NCBI RefSeq assembly: GCF_009914755.1
Contig: NC_060927.1
DNA length: 64,000 nt
Origin: the human T2T-CHM13v2.0 reference genome, Homo sapiens
Strand: one strand, 5' to 3'
Each line of letters opens with the position of its first letter. Positions within the stretch are counted from its first letter, which is position 1. Shown here in pieces: positions 34,201 through 42,469 of the stretch. The translations under genes were made by a program, and so were the position numbers. The notes below the pieces were generated by a model. It ran no database searches. It was not told the DNA's origin and saw nothing but the letters and a program-made list of their open reading frames with translations.

Positions 34201-36712
34201 CTCTCAGTGTACCACCCCAAGAAGCAGTAGCATGCAATGGGGACAGGTACAGAGTCTAGAGTCACACTGCCCAGCTTCCACTCTTGATTGCAGCTTTTGC
34301 AGTGTGTGACTGGAGGCAATTACTTACCTCACTCTGCCTCTGTTTCCCTATCTGTGTAATACACATGATGACAACAGTATTTACTTAGCACAGGACAATA
34401 CTTGATAATTATGAGCTGTTCCTCTTATTGCTCACCTGAATCTCTGAACAAGACCACAAAATTGCCACTGATACTCCCACAGCATCCTCCATAGGGATGC
34501 TCAACATATGCCCAATGATGTCCAACACATTTTAGAAAAAAATGAAAGAAGACTGCCAGTTAAAGCTACCTGCAAAGTTTCTTCTCTACTCCAAACATAG
34601 AGCAATGATGCAGAAAACATTTTTTAATGGAGCTCATACCAACCATTATGAATTCTTCTGATACTGACAAAATAAATCACAGAGTAATTCTCTAGATATT
34701 TTTAACAAATTTTTCACTCATTACAATATTTATTGAGCAGCTACTGGCAATATCTGAGGTCTGGGAATACTGATGGAATGTACTGATCAGGTAAGAAATT
34801 TACTGTATTAAAATAGGGAGCAATTGTTAAGTTCTGTAATATGTATAGGAAACAGCCCTTGTAAAAGATCGTGTATATAAAATGTTATGTTTATATGTTT
34901 GGGAATAGTTTCTGTAATTAGCTTTGTTGGTAGAAATAGAATGTATTGAATCTGTAGAGACAGAATTAGAAATGCCTGCATCAGCAAAATCATGGCTTAG
35001 GTCAGCAGAACTAGGGACAAGCATGTATTAAGGAAATCATGTGGTTTTGAGAAGGGGGACCGGAATGGCATTTAGAAGTTTGGGCAGAGATTATACAGGA
35101 CAAGTTTGAGCCATCAGTAAAGGTCTGAAAGCTTAAGAAATTCCAGGTAATACCTTTTGCCTTGGTGGATCTCCCACTGTCCTGGGTTCAACCTGGATAA
35201 GGAGACCAGGAGACCAATAATTCATGTTACCTCTTTCTCCTGTCTGCCCACCCCCAGCACAGAGGGAGGCCCAGGTCTCCTGGGGGTTTTGCTTGTCCTG
35301 GGTTATTAGCAACTGTGGCCTGTAAAGACTTGGGTGCTCTTCTGGCCCTGCTACCAAAGAAGGGCAAGATGCCCAAAAGGATTAACACAGGACATCAATA
35401 GGATTAGCAGCAGAACATATACTGCTTCCCATCAAGATCTTACAGCGAGATAAGTCCAAAGACCCCTATCTCTCTTCTAAGGACCAGTCAAGAAAATAGT
35501 AAGCAGGGTAAGTATAAGAGGATCTTGGTCTATTAATCCATTTCTTTTTCTTTAATGAGATCAGTTGTGTTTCAAATACTTGATCGCTAAAACTTCTAGA
35601 TGGAACAATATGTTCTTTGCAGAAAAAGCTAGAGAACAAGGTAAACGTCAAACAATGTCTTATCAAATCAACCTGCATCCAAATACATCAGACAATGCTA
35701 GTGAGTAATGCTGAGTTTCGGCCAACCCTTTGGCTCACATTAGCACATCAGTTGGAGTTCCTGCGCAATGGTTTTGGTCTTCCAAGTAAGTTGAGATCAT
35801 AACCTTTTTGTTGTTGTTTCCTGCCAGACAAAGAAGTGGTTTCACACTCAGCCTTTTCCAGACCACCAAAAGACAATAAGACACTAAAGCAACCCACCCC
35901 ATATGCAACTCCTGCCAACTCCAAATCTCCTAAAACAATAAGCTGAACAAGGCCAGGAGATGGGGTTTATGTGAGGTCCACCACCTCTGCCTAAGAATGA
36001 ATCATAAAACCACTAGCACTCCATTCCCCAGCTTCACACTGCCTAGCCCCAACCTACTCGAACTGTGCATAATGAAAATGAAATCAGGAACACACTGAAC
36101 CTAAAACCTCAAGTACATTTTAAATCTTGTTTTAGATTCATCTATATTAACAGAGGTCAGGCAATTTCTTTATTCAAGCTAAGTTATTCTTACTGGTATA
36201 ATGACAAAAGTGGTCAGACACATTCTTTCTACTAAAAAAAAAAAAAAAATACCCTGACAAAGTACATTCTAAAACTCAGTAGAGAATATGGAAATAGCTT
36301 GCAATAAACTTTGCCTTATAAAATAACTAATGAAGGAAATAACCCAGTTATTTGGCAATGGGAAACAACCATTTGTATATTATTACGTATTTGGTAGGTC
36401 ATTAATTAGAAGCACTTTTTATTTTCTAGCATAGCATTTTTCAAAAATGTCTTACAAAGAACACCAGTGCAACAAGAGAAAAGCAAGTCACGTAAGTTTG
36501 AGAAGCTCTGCCTTCTCTGGTCCCCTTCTTGGAAATGACTAATGCATATTTGCATATTAAAGACTGAGACTGTAACTCTGTGGAATCCCTCATTTCCCCA
36601 AGTTCACTTGGCACTGCAACCCTTTTTCTCTCATAACACATATCAACAGCCCACAAAATGGCTGTTCTGCCAAGCACAATTTGGGGAAAATTTCTTCTAG
36701 AAATGGGATGTA

Positions 36713-40429: not shown

Positions 40430-40846
40430 CTCTCTAAGATGTATGTTTTCCTTCTCTTTCTGATCTAAAATCACTTCCAAGTGGCTGACCTGAGACTCAG
40501 CCTCTGCCATCCGCCGCGTTCGCTCATTGTCATCCTCCAGGCTTTTGGATGGCAAGCCTTTACTTTGCAACATCTCAAGAAGTTTTTTAATTGACTCATC
40601 TCGGGCATTGAGGGTTTGTTTCTGCGTTTCAATTCTCAGCTCCATTTCCTCTAATGTCTTCCTCAAAAGGAACAGCTCCTTAGCCTGCCTGTCATGCTCG
40701 GCTTGGAGCCGCCTAAAGTTCTCCTCGGTCAGCTCGATGGTGAAGTGCTCCGCTCCTCGGTTGCCACTCTCTTGCTGGAGGAGGTGGTTGAGGTCTCTCT
40801 GGGTTCGCAGCTCATCTTGAAGGGCCTGGATTGTCAACTGTAGGTG
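40430..40846 (-). CDS. ERC2: Internal coding exon of ERC2 (ELKS/RAB6-interacting/CAST family member 2), N-terminal coiled coil; 417 nt, 139 codons, phase 0/0
   Basis: Peptide HLQLTIQALQDELRTQRDLNHLLQQESGNRGAEHF...EKENIHLRE recognised as ERC2 (the ERC1 paralog reads HMQMTIQ...). Acceptor on the minus strand is a long pyrimidine tract ...ctttctcattgcag|CAC; donor is GAG|gtaaga. Local CpG retention is typical of a coding exon. Confidence 0.96.
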
Positions 40847-40900
40847 CTGCAATGAGAAAGATGGAGCGGGAGAGGAGAAAGAAGGAAAAAAAGTCAATGA
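40847..40900 (-). promoter_or_regulatory. 3' splice site: polypyrimidine tract and putative branch region of the ERC2 exon
   Basis: Minus strand cattgacttttttccttctttctcctctcccgctccatctttctcattgcag. Confidence 0.85.
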
Positions 40901-41492
40901 AAATGTCAAGTGCCGCTTGCTGCCACCACACTATGAAGATGGAATGTTAATCATGAGGTCCGGAGGGCCAGCCATGAATTCCTCCACGGTGACTTCAGAA
41001 GCATGGGACAGCACATGGAGAGGGGGAGATTAATTCAGTGATGCTTTCTGAATGTCTTGAGAGAAGAGAAATGCACACACACACAGAAACAATAGATTAG
41101 TGTCAATCACAAGGGAAATTATACATCTACAGAGTTTTAATTTAGGAAATGGAAAAGGTTAGAAGGAAACTTTCACAAACACACCTTCTTTATGCCCAGA
41201 ATGCTCCAGACTCAGTATTCCTTGTTTCCTAAGGTATTCTTTATTGTACTATCCATTATTTCCCACGATCAATATGTGGTGATTTAAAAATGAAAATAAT
41301 AGCATCCACTACAAGTAGACACAAACAAAGACTTTATTTTTTACAAATAAAGCTGTGAACAGGTTTAGTAAACAGGATTACTGCATCTGCAAGCAAAAGG
41401 GAATAAATGCAGGCACAGACAAACACACTCAAACACACAAGGAGGTGAGGCTGCACAGAGCAGAACAAACAAGCTGCAAAGAGTGGACAAAC

Positions 41493-41516
41493 CTTGGTTC
41501 TTCTGGCATCCAGTAA
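41493..41516 (-). CDS. ERC2: Candidate 24-nt alternative microexon of ERC2 (TTA CTG GAT GCC AGA AGA ACC AAG = LLDARRTK)
   Basis: Minus strand ...ttttttttcatttaccaTGCtgttcag|TTACTGGATGCCAGAAGAACCAAG|gtttgt. Multiple of 3, phase 0 like the next exon, no stop, UGC at -10..-8, no AG for about 88 nt upstream. Confidence 0.75.
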
Positions 41517-42469
41517 CTGAACAGCATGGTAAATGAAAAAAAAATGAAGCAAAAAATCAACACAAAGAAAAGTCCAGTGCAAGCAAAGGATATTTAACAG
41601 AAAGAACTTAACACAAAGTACCTTCACAGAAGAAGAAAAAAAAAAAGAAAAAAAAATTCTAATTACAGCAAAGACCCATAAGCTACATGGAGTTTATAGC
41701 ATTGACGTTTGATAGACATGGAAAAAAAAAAGAAAGACCAAACCTGAGGTTTATCCCACCTTTTGTTTTCCTAAATCTCACTGACCCAGAAACAGAAAGT
41801 CTTGAAAGTATTACTAGAGAGGGAAGCAACTGTTATTTTGGGTCACCATTTTAAGCAAAGTCAGAGTGAAAGCACCAGAGAAACAAAATAGTTATCAGAT
41901 GTGAGAAAAGGCACCCGTGCTTGAAGATAGTTGATGAATTTGGCAACACCTTTCCCCATAGGACAAACCCCCAGGCTGGTCAGAGAAGGCAGCCACAAGC
42001 CTGAAGGCATTTCTATCCCTATGGACAAGCCAAGATGCTTCCAAGACAGCAGCTGTTCATTCGCCAAACACATGATCCTGCTTGTGGAATGAACACAGTG
42101 CTAAGCACAGGAATCAAGAGGGACATAAGACATAGCTCCTGCCCACAGGGAACTCACAGTATTGTAAGGCATGGGGTAATACTATAAGTTATATGAATAT
42201 TGGAGCAGTCAACATTTTGAAATCTTTCTGAATTCCTATAGCTGACACTCAGAGGTATTGAGATCTTTCTGAGTGTGGCCTACACCCAGAAACTAGCACT
42301 GGGTGATGCACCATCTTGATTATATTGTTTCTGGGTATCCAATTCATATTCCCATTTATGAATGTCCATTGAGAAATTATTAGAGCATTCTCATCTGTAT
42401 ACCACAGTGCCTCTCAGGGTATTGAATGCAGAGAAAGAAACTGATATGTATTTAATGATGGAGGTTATT

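What the first reader, a model, noticed from the sequence alone, without database searches (positions are those of the whole stretch)
41493..41606. In-frame 24-nt neural-type microexon (LLDARRTK) upstream of the ERC2 coiled-coil exon
Seen: on the minus strand, ttcag|24 nt|gtttgt, phase 0, stop-free, with TGC at -10..-8, a U-rich tract and no AG from 41519 to 41606. Established: UGC just upstream of the 3' splice site, a long AG-exclusion zone and frame preservation are hallmarks of SRRM4/SRRM3-dependent neuronal microexons. Inference: inclusion adds 8 residues (a heptad plus 1, basic) just before HLQLTIQ, which could shift the coiled-coil register and tune active-zone interactions. It may already be catalogued as a minor isoform; I cannot check.
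Basis: partly seen in the sequence, partly recalled or inferred. Interest (0 to 1): 0.8.

Follow-up and report, generated by a model that had tools for sequence, protein, structure and literature searches.

The report
Known conserved 24-nt ERC2 microexon
This is a real 24-base alternative exon of the synaptic scaffold gene ERC2 that adds eight amino acids to a coiled-coil helix, but gene and protein databases already list it, so it is not a discovery.

Summary
On the minus strand, 41516..41493 is a stop-free 24-nt exon (LLDARRTK) between ttcAG| and |GTttgt. It has TGC at -10..-8 and no AG for 90 nt upstream.

It is not new. The hub's RefSeq table lists 41493-41516 as an exon of other ERC2 transcripts. 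Of the 120 best database proteins matching the downstream exon, 32 read EENQ-LLDARRTK-HLQLTIQ. These include rat ERC2 isoform 2 (Swiss-Prot Q8K3M6-2) and human XP isoforms.

The peptide is deeply conserved. All 116 top hits to a carp ERC2 junction carry an insert with core LD[A/S]RRTK, in mammals, birds, gar and teleosts. The paralogue ERC1 lacks it.

AlphaFold2 puts the insert inside one continuous helix, about 38 residues before the solved LL5beta-binding CC3 segment.

SRRM4/SRRM3 dependence fits the cis signals but was not tested. The only published link found is Erc2 named among genes mis-spliced in Srrm4-mutant mice, with no exon given.

The register-shift idea is arithmetic only. The upstream heptad signal is weak, and some fish carry 9 residues.

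Verdict: already known, function untested, low interest.

The parts
41493..41516 (-). 24-nt alternative cassette microexon of ERC2 encoding LLDARRTK (net charge +2), phase 0
   Evidence: Sequence read. The hub RefSeq table lists 41493-41516 as an exon of other ERC2 transcripts. 32 of 120 database proteins carry the peptide at this junction.
41517..41518 (-). 3' splice-site AG (context ttcAG|T)
41524..41526 (-). UGC motif at -10..-8 from the exon, at the 3' end of the pyrimidine tract
   Evidence: This motif class was described upstream of Srrm4-regulated exons by Nakano 2012 (PMC3464207, passages read).
41519..41606 (-). AG-free, U-rich tract (73% pyrimidine, 56% T) with candidate branch points (yUnAy) at -14, -18, -29 and -41. 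Further UGC at -35, -65 and -69.
41487..41495 (-). 5' splice site AAG|GTTTGT. It departs from the usual consensus at +3 and +4; the neighbouring constitutive exon has GAG|GTAAGA.
   Evidence: The consensus is recalled, and no score model was run.
40847..41492 (-). Short downstream intron of 646 nt. Its first 100 nt are UG-rich: 11 UGU and 6 UGC, against window rates of 2.47 and 1.6 per 100 nt. No GCAUG lies within 300 nt on either side of the exon.
40430..40846 (-). Downstream constitutive ERC2 coding exon (139 codons, starts HLQLTIQ), part of the Cast domain
   Evidence: Pfam PF10174 Cast, E 4.3e-57, 194.4 bits against a cut-off of 29.1. Listed in the hub RefSeq table.

Best explanation
This is a genuine, already annotated 24-nt alternative cassette exon of ERC2 (CAST/ELKS2), conserved across vertebrates. 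Shown: it is spliced between the first large coding exon (ending ...EENQ, about 137 kb upstream) and the HLQLTIQ exon 646 nt downstream. It inserts eight residues, LLDARRTK (net +2), after residue 219. Inferred: inclusion in neurons is most likely promoted by SRRM4/SRRM3 acting on the UGC at -10, at the end of a long U-rich, AG-free tract. That would compensate for a short exon with a non-consensus donor. Predicted: the insert lies inside one continuous alpha-helix of the N-terminal coiled-coil region, about 38 residues before the CC3 segment that binds LL5beta. Inferred: it lengthens that helix by roughly two turns and adds a conserved basic patch (RRTK). It would change the spacing and rotational phase between the N-terminal segment and CC3, and so tune partner binding or self-assembly. 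My odds: about 0.97 that it is a real conserved exon, about 0.6 that it depends on SRRM4/SRRM3, and about 0.25 that it works by register or spacing rather than through sequence-specific contacts.
For: Anatomy is confirmed. The hub RefSeq table lists the exon. Of the 120 best matches to the downstream exon, 32 include the peptide, 85 skip it and 3 are aberrant models. The 32 include rat ERC2 isoform 2 (NP record and Swiss-Prot Q8K3M6-2), rat 'cytomatrix protein p110', human XP isoforms X14 and X17, and 4 unnamed transcript-derived proteins. Removing the 8 residues from P0109 gives P0066 exactly. All 116 proteins tabulated from the carp junction search carry an insert with core LD[A/S]RRTK, in mammals, birds, gar and teleosts. 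L221, D222, R224, R225, T226 and K227 are at least 90% conserved in a 30-sequence alignment. The UGC position matches the motif Nakano 2012 found upstream of 54 Srrm4-regulated exons, and that paper names Erc2 among genes mis-spliced in Srrm4 bv/bv mice (passages read). AlphaFold2 gives a continuous helix through the site in both isoforms: H144-254 with the exon and H189-245 without. The pLDDT is 61-83 (10-residue block means) around the site. PDB 8whm (ERC2 CC3 with LL5beta) covers residues 266-325 of the including isoform (PMC11297316 passages).
Against: No RNA-seq, VastDB or SRRM4 perturbation data could be consulted. Neural specificity and SRRM4/SRRM3 dependence therefore rest on cis motifs plus a paper that does not name the Erc2 exon in its main text. 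No UCUC motif occurs within 300 nt on either side of the exon. The long U-rich AG-free tract and the UGU-rich downstream intron fit PTBP- or CELF-type control equally well (regulator-motif links recalled). The upstream heptad register is weak, and some fish have 9 rather than 8 residues, which argues against a fixed +1 register shift. The AlphaFold2 models are monomers with pTM 0.22 and only moderate local confidence. The conservation count is biased because the query contained the insert.
Confidence: 0.6

Rival explanations
1. The exon is real and conserved but is controlled mainly by factors other than SRRM4/SRRM3. One route would be relief of PTBP1 repression through the long U-rich tract. 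Another would be UG-binding factors acting on the UGU-rich downstream intron.
For: There is an 88-nt AG-free tract that is 56% T. The first 100 nt of the downstream intron hold 11 UGU, against 2.47 per 100 nt window-wide. No UCUC lies within 300 nt on either side. The links between these motifs and those regulators are recalled.
Against: UGC sits exactly at the 3' end of the pyrimidine tract (-10..-8), which is the position Nakano 2012 showed to be required in 6 of 6 mutated minigenes. Erc2 is among the genes mis-spliced in the Srrm4 mutant. The two modes of control can also co-exist.
Confidence: 0.3
2. The insert works through sequence-specific contacts or a regulated site, not through helix length or register. 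The invariant basic RRTK patch and its threonine are the candidates.
For: The C-terminal LDARRTK is the conserved part, while the N-terminal end varies in residue and length: L, F, P, M, HL, QL, QP, QQ, VI. Insert length is 8 or 9, so the register change is not constant. D222, R224, R225, T226 and K227 are at least 90% conserved.
Against: ERC2 as a whole is 76-100% identical among 28 of the 29 aligned sequences, with one outlier at 59%. The exon is therefore not more conserved than its flanks. No partner, kinase or modification was tested. The phosphosite idea is inference only.
Confidence: 0.35
3. The exon is a low-inclusion by-product of splicing with no function of its own, carried along in gene models.
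For: 85 of 120 listed proteins skip it, and the RefSeq selected transcript omits it (hub table). Most including entries are predicted XP models. The donor is non-consensus.
Against: The peptide and its frame are kept across mammals, birds, gar and many teleost orders. It is present in a cDNA-derived, curated rat isoform and in 4 unnamed transcript-derived proteins. Its splice signals are rare in the window: 2 of 2341 candidates.
Confidence: 0.05

Closest known systems
ERC2 isoforms already in databases that contain this insert: rat ERC2 isoform 2 (Swiss-Prot Q8K3M6-2, P0032; NP record P0030), rat 'cytomatrix protein p110' (P0008), and human XP isoforms X14 and X17 (P0109, P0088)
   Same: They hold the same exon. 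All read EENQ-LLDARRTK-HLQLTIQ at the same junction. Human P0109 minus the 8 residues equals the canonical 957-aa protein P0066.
   Different: Nothing differs at this site. The rat isoform 2 also differs elsewhere, with one internal deletion and one further insert.
The 12-nt ERC2/ERC1 microexon (hg19 chr3:56020004-56020016 and chr12:1313666-1313678), listed as 'Known' by Rahimi et al. 2021 (PMC8355340, supplement file 7)
   Same: It is in the same gene family, is a frame-preserving microexon, and was detected in human and mouse brain.
   Different: It is a different exon in the C-terminal half of the gene. It is shared by ERC1 and ERC2, whereas the 24-nt exon has no ERC1 counterpart. The 24-nt exon is not in that paper's ERC2 rows.
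Srrm4 (nSR100)-dependent exons with an upstream UGC motif (Nakano et al. 2012, PMC3464207)
   Same: It is a short cassette exon with UGC at the 3' end of the pyrimidine tract just before the AG. Erc2 is named among the mis-spliced genes.
   Different: Dependence of this particular exon on Srrm4 is not shown in any text I could read.
Microexons inside alpha-helices, as analysed in PMC13759335 (Nat Struct Mol Biol 2026; passages read)
   Same: It is a 24-nt microexon rich in charged residues, inserted in a predicted helix.
   Different: That paper reports that 12- and 21-nt helix-preserving microexons are spread along helices, while other lengths sit near helix ends. This 24-nt exon sits mid-helix in my models, about 31 and 26 residues from the ends. 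Its ERC example is ERC1, not this exon.

Membership tests
Annotated alternative exon of ERC2 | The exon is listed in a reference annotation at these coordinates | tested here: met
   The hub RefSeq table (RS_2025_08) lists 'exons of other transcripts 41493-41516'. The coordinates match the sequence read.
Annotated alternative exon of ERC2 | The encoded peptide is present at the expected junction in deposited protein isoforms | tested here: met
   32 of 120 best matches carry EENQ-LLDARRTK-HLQLTIQ, including a curated rat isoform.
Neural microexon (3-27 nt class; definition recalled from Irimia et al. 2014) | Length 3-27 nt and a multiple of three | tested here: met
   24 nt, phase 0 on both sides.
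Neural microexon (3-27 nt class; definition recalled from Irimia et al. 2014) | Conservation across vertebrates | tested here: met
   At protein level, 116 of 116 tabulated hits from mammals, birds, gar and teleosts carry the LD[A/S]RRTK core. The query held the insert, so the count is biased. Intron and splice-site DNA of other species was not available.
Neural microexon (3-27 nt class; definition recalled from Irimia et al. 2014) | Higher inclusion in neural than in non-neural tissue | not testable with these tools
   No RNA-seq or VastDB access was available.
SRRM4/SRRM3-dependent exon | UGC (GC essential) close upstream of the 3' splice site, at the end of the pyrimidine tract | tested here: met
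   TGC at -10..-8. The motif definition comes from PMC3464207 passages.
SRRM4/SRRM3-dependent exon | Inclusion changes when SRRM4/SRRM3 is lost or over-expressed | not testable with these tools
   The evidence is only indirect. Erc2 is named among genes with splicing defects in Srrm4 bv/bv mice, with the exon unspecified in the main text.
Cast / ELKS family (Pfam PF10174) | The flanking coding exon matches the family profile above the curated cut-off | tested here: met
   E 4.3e-57, 194.4 bits against a cut-off of 29.1, profile positions 71-213 of 766.
Coiled-coil 'skip' (one-residue heptad shift) | A continuous heptad register on both sides of the insertion in the skipping isoform | tested here: inconclusive
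   The downstream register is clear (14.8 against 10.2). The upstream register is nearly flat (5.5/5.4/5.2/4.9), using my own crude a/d scoring. Monomer AlphaFold2 models show a continuous helix but say nothing about dimer register.

The most novel reading that the evidence does not exclude
The exon could be an ERC2-specific, neuron-regulated switch, absent from ERC1. Under this reading it inserts a conserved basic LDARRTK turn into the helix just upstream of the LL5beta-binding CC3 segment, within the CCA-CCC region that binds liprin-alpha. That would re-phase the two halves of the N-terminal coiled coil and change ELKS2/CAST self-assembly, condensate formation or partner choice at the active zone. 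It would give a concrete function to one of the internal ELKS splice variants, whose relevance the 2018 review (PMC5830537) calls 'not known'.
Probability: 0.15. Interest if true: 0.55.

Novelty: already known. Interest (0 to 1): 0.15.

Why it matters
As a discovery it does not matter, because the exon is in RefSeq and in curated protein isoforms. What stays open is its function. [quoted passage not shown] The Held and Kaeser review states that the relevance of internal alternative exons in ELKS genes is not known. In the text I could search, no main text discusses this exon: a search for 'LLDARRTK' found 0 papers, and searches pairing ERC2 or Erc2 with microexon, Srrm4, Srrm3, nSR100 or cassette exon named no 24-nt exon. 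The exon is conserved across bony vertebrates, is specific to one paralogue and lies near mapped binding regions. That makes it a reasonable but ordinary candidate for an isoform-specific experiment.

Tried and rejected
1. I searched for an ERC1 paralogue of the exon. The whole homologous human ERC1 intron (54,485 nt, L003-L008) held 697 stop-free AG..(18-30 nt)..GT candidates. The best BLOSUM62 score against LLDARRTK was 15, against a self-score of 38, and blastn gave only T-run matches. Of 120 best ERC1 proteins, 119 read EENQ directly before HMQMTIQ and 1 starts at the exon, so 0 carry an insert. I rejected the idea that the exon is shared by both paralogues in mammals. ERC1 of fish and other non-mammals was not examined.
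2. I checked whether the ERC2 microexon reported in brain by Rahimi 2021 is this one. It is not. Their rows are a 12-nt human exon, and 12-nt and 27-nt mouse exons, at other coordinates.
3. I tried to identify which Erc2 exon is Srrm4-dependent in Nakano 2012. An ERC2 splicing event validated by PCR in autism cortex (bioRxiv 10.1101/077057, passage read) and one in clock-mutant beta cells (PMC7397853) are also not specified by exon.
4. Wang et al. 2002 (PNAS), the likely first description of ERC splice variants, is not held by DOI or by PMC id.
6. The second window candidate passing my splice-signal filter (minus strand 35350-35330, 21 nt, QGQKSTQ) has a poor donor (GTCTTT) and no annotation. 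I judged it a chance match.
7. I did not run complex prediction, because this report makes no new binding claim.

Full report
OBSERVATION. The minus strand of 41516..41493 reads TTACTGGATGCCAGAAGAACCAAG. This is eight sense codons, LLDARRTK, preceded by ...accaTGCtgttcAG and followed by GTttgt. TGC occupies -10..-8. The nearest upstream AG is 90 nt from the acceptor AG, at 41608-41607. The AG-free stretch 41519-41606 is 73% pyrimidine and 56% T.

The frame is phase 0 on both sides. The previous coding exon lies outside the window and ends ...CAT GAA GAA AAT CAG|gtaggt at G000:C3:56474780. The next exon (40846..40430) begins CAC CTA CAG, HLQ. The upstream intron is therefore about 137 kb and the downstream intron 646 nt.

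The signal combination is uncommon. AG-to-AG gaps of 90 nt or more are 30 of 4222 on this strand. Of 2341 stop-free AG..(9-27 nt)..GT candidates on both strands, only 2 combine an AG-free zone of at least 60 nt, TGC at -20..-5 and at least 70% pyrimidine (thresholds set after the fact). One of the two is this exon. The other, at 35350, has a poor donor.

WHAT IT IS. The hub's RefSeq table already lists 41493-41516 as an exon of other ERC2 transcripts. The downstream exon is a clear piece of the Cast domain (PF10174, E 4.3e-57).

I searched 5.8 billion proteins with that exon and examined the 120 best matches. Of these, 32 read EENQ-LLDARRTK-HLQLTIQ, 85 read EENQ-HLQLTIQ, and 3 are aberrant models that read in from the intron. 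The 32 include:
- rat ERC2 isoform 2, as an NP record and as Swiss-Prot Q8K3M6-2;
- rat 'cytomatrix protein p110';
- human XP isoforms X14 and X17, and mouse X19 and X21;
- models from other rodents, primates, rabbit, sheep, pig, donkey, mustelid and cats;
- 4 unnamed proteins from short, transcript-sized contigs.

Human P0109 with the eight residues removed is identical to the canonical 957-residue protein P0066. The insert starts at residue 220.

CONSERVATION. A representative search gave a carp ERC2 (P0128) that reads EENQ-HLLDARRTK-HLQL. I used its junction region as a query and tabulated 116 proteins from that search: the query P0128 plus the 115 ids new to the session. The 4 listed hits already held were left out of the tabulation, and all 4 carry the insert. 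All 116 have an insert with the core LD[A/S]RRTK:
- LLDARRTK in mammals and many percomorph fish;
- FLDARRTK in crows and a loon, and VILDARRTK in a low-quality razorbill model;
- PLDARRTK in gar;
- HLLDARRTK or HLMDARRTK in carps, minnows, a piranha, a catfish and a pupfish, with one HMLDARRTK in a cave tetra;
- MLDARRTK in stickleback;
- QPLDSRRTK in elephantfishes;
- QQLDARRTK in arowana.

The count is biased, because the query contained the insert. It shows presence, not how often the exon is included. In a 30-sequence alignment, L221, D222, R224, R225, T226 and K227 are at least 90% conserved. However, the whole protein is 76-100% identical among 28 of the 29 aligned sequences, with one at 59%. 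The exon is therefore not more conserved than its flanks. Splice-site and intron DNA of other vertebrates was not available to me.

PARALOGUE. The homologous ERC1 exon is at G000:C12:1078928-1079344 and is 77% identical. The entire 54,485-nt ERC1 intron upstream of it holds no LLDARRTK-like AG..GT exon. The best score was 15 against a self-score of 38 among 697 candidates, and blastn gave only T-run matches. Of the 120 best ERC1 proteins, 119 join EENQ directly to HMQMTIQ and 1 is uninformative. In mammals the exon is specific to ERC2. Non-mammalian ERC1 was not examined.

REGULATION (inferred). Nakano et al. 2012 found a UGC motif at the 3' end of the pyrimidine tract upstream of 54 Srrm4-regulated exons. 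They showed by mutation in 6 minigenes that the GC is needed (passages read). Their discussion names Erc2 among the synaptic-ribbon genes mis-spliced in Srrm4 bv/bv mice, without saying which exon. The supplementary tables could not be opened.

The exon here has UGC at -10..-8. It has 4 UGC in the upstream 100 nt, against 1.6 per 100 nt window-wide, and candidate branch points at -14, -18, -29 and -41. Its donor (AAG|GTTTGT) departs from consensus at +3 and +4, whereas the neighbouring exon has GAG|GTAAGA. This fits an exon that needs an activator.

Several points count against a simple SRRM4-only picture. No UCUC lies within 300 nt on either side. No GCAUG is present. The first 100 nt of the downstream intron are strikingly UGU-rich, with 11 against 2.47 per 100 nt. 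A long U-rich AG-free tract also fits PTBP repression (recalled). I put SRRM4/SRRM3 dependence at about 0.6.

STRUCTURE AND LIKELY ACTION. AlphaFold2 was run with 30-sequence alignments. It predicts a continuous helix through the site in both isoforms: H144-254 with the exon and H189-245 without. Ten-residue block means of pLDDT are 61-83 around the site, and pTM is 0.22 for these long rod-like monomers. The insert therefore lies mid-helix, not at a helix end.

The nearest solved structure is 8whm, ERC2 CC3 bound to the LL5beta EBM. It covers residues 266-325 of the including isoform, so it starts about 38 residues after the insert (PMC11297316 passages). The review by Held and Kaeser places liprin-alpha and LL5beta binding in CCA-CCC. 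It also says the functional relevance of internal alternative exons of ELKS genes is not known.

Eight residues add about two helical turns and one heptad position. My crude a/d scoring gives a clear register only downstream (14.8 against 10.2). Upstream it is flat at 5.5/5.4/5.2/4.9. Several fish lineages carry nine residues. A fixed +1 register shift is therefore not established. The conserved part is the basic LDARRTK end next to HLQ, which points at least as much to sequence-specific contacts as to pure spacing.

PRIOR KNOWLEDGE AND NOVELTY. The exon is in RefSeq and in curated isoforms, so I rate it already known. In the searchable literature I found no main text that discusses it:
- 'LLDARRTK' gave 0 papers.
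- 'ERC2' with 'microexon' gave 1 paper, whose ERC2 microexons are different exons of 12 nt (and 27 nt in mouse).
- Erc2 with Srrm4, Srrm3, nSR100 or cassette exon gave nothing that names the exon.
- The ERC1 microexon papers concern other exons.

Supplementary exon tables that I could not open may well list it. Wang et al. 2002 was not held. ERC2 splicing events reported in autism cortex and in clock-mutant beta cells are not specified by exon in the text I read.

VERDICT. The feature is a real, deeply conserved, ERC2-specific 24-nt microexon that is already annotated. Its regulation by SRRM4/SRRM3 is plausible but untested here, and its function is unstudied. Interest is low as a finding. It is a modest candidate for an isoform-specific experiment.

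Noticed in passing
window 35330-35350, minus strand: This is the only other candidate in the window that passes the filter of AG-free zone at least 60 nt, TGC at -20..-5 and at least 70% pyrimidine. It is a 21-nt open AG..GT segment (QGQKSTQ) in the intron downstream of the HLQLTIQ exon. Its donor is poor (GTCTTT) and it is not annotated, so it is probably chance.
   Followed up: partly
window 41393-41492, minus strand (first 100 nt of the 646-nt intron after the microexon): The stretch is strongly UG-rich, with 11 UGU and 6 UGC against 2.47 and 1.6 per 100 nt window-wide, and includes GTGTGT runs. It may be a binding platform for UG-binding splicing factors. No GCAUG lies within 300 nt either side.
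   Followed up: partly
proteins P0128, P0271-P0303: Carps, minnows, characins, catfishes and a pupfish carry a 9-residue form (H or Q before L[L/M]DARRTK), and elephantfishes have QPLDSRRTK. This may reflect an acceptor 3 nt further upstream in those lineages. No fish DNA was available to check.
   Followed up: no
window 41630-41665, minus strand: Long T runs (for example ttttttttctttttttttttcttcttc) lie just upstream of the AG-free tract. They caused all the spurious blastn matches to the ERC1 intron.
   Followed up: no
L002 1-1500 (G000:C12:1077428-1078927): The 1.5 kb upstream of the homologous ERC1 exon contains Alu-like segments (GCCTCAGCCTCC..., GGTCTTGAA...). The ERC2 counterpart in the window holds the microexon instead.
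   Followed up: partly
protein P0463: This is an unnamed 1435-residue database protein whose ERC1 exon is 100% identical to the human one. Its precomputed Pfam list also carries PF00454, PF00168 and PF00787, which suggests a fused or mis-assembled gene model.
   Followed up: no
protein P0032 (rat ERC2 isoform 2): Besides LLDARRTK, this curated isoform lacks a block of the central coiled coil (it reads ...ILQTE-IENLQEQ...). It also carries an extra QAEQLFNQMYNP insert before AHNIEDD. ERC2 therefore has several internal alternative segments.
   Followed up: no
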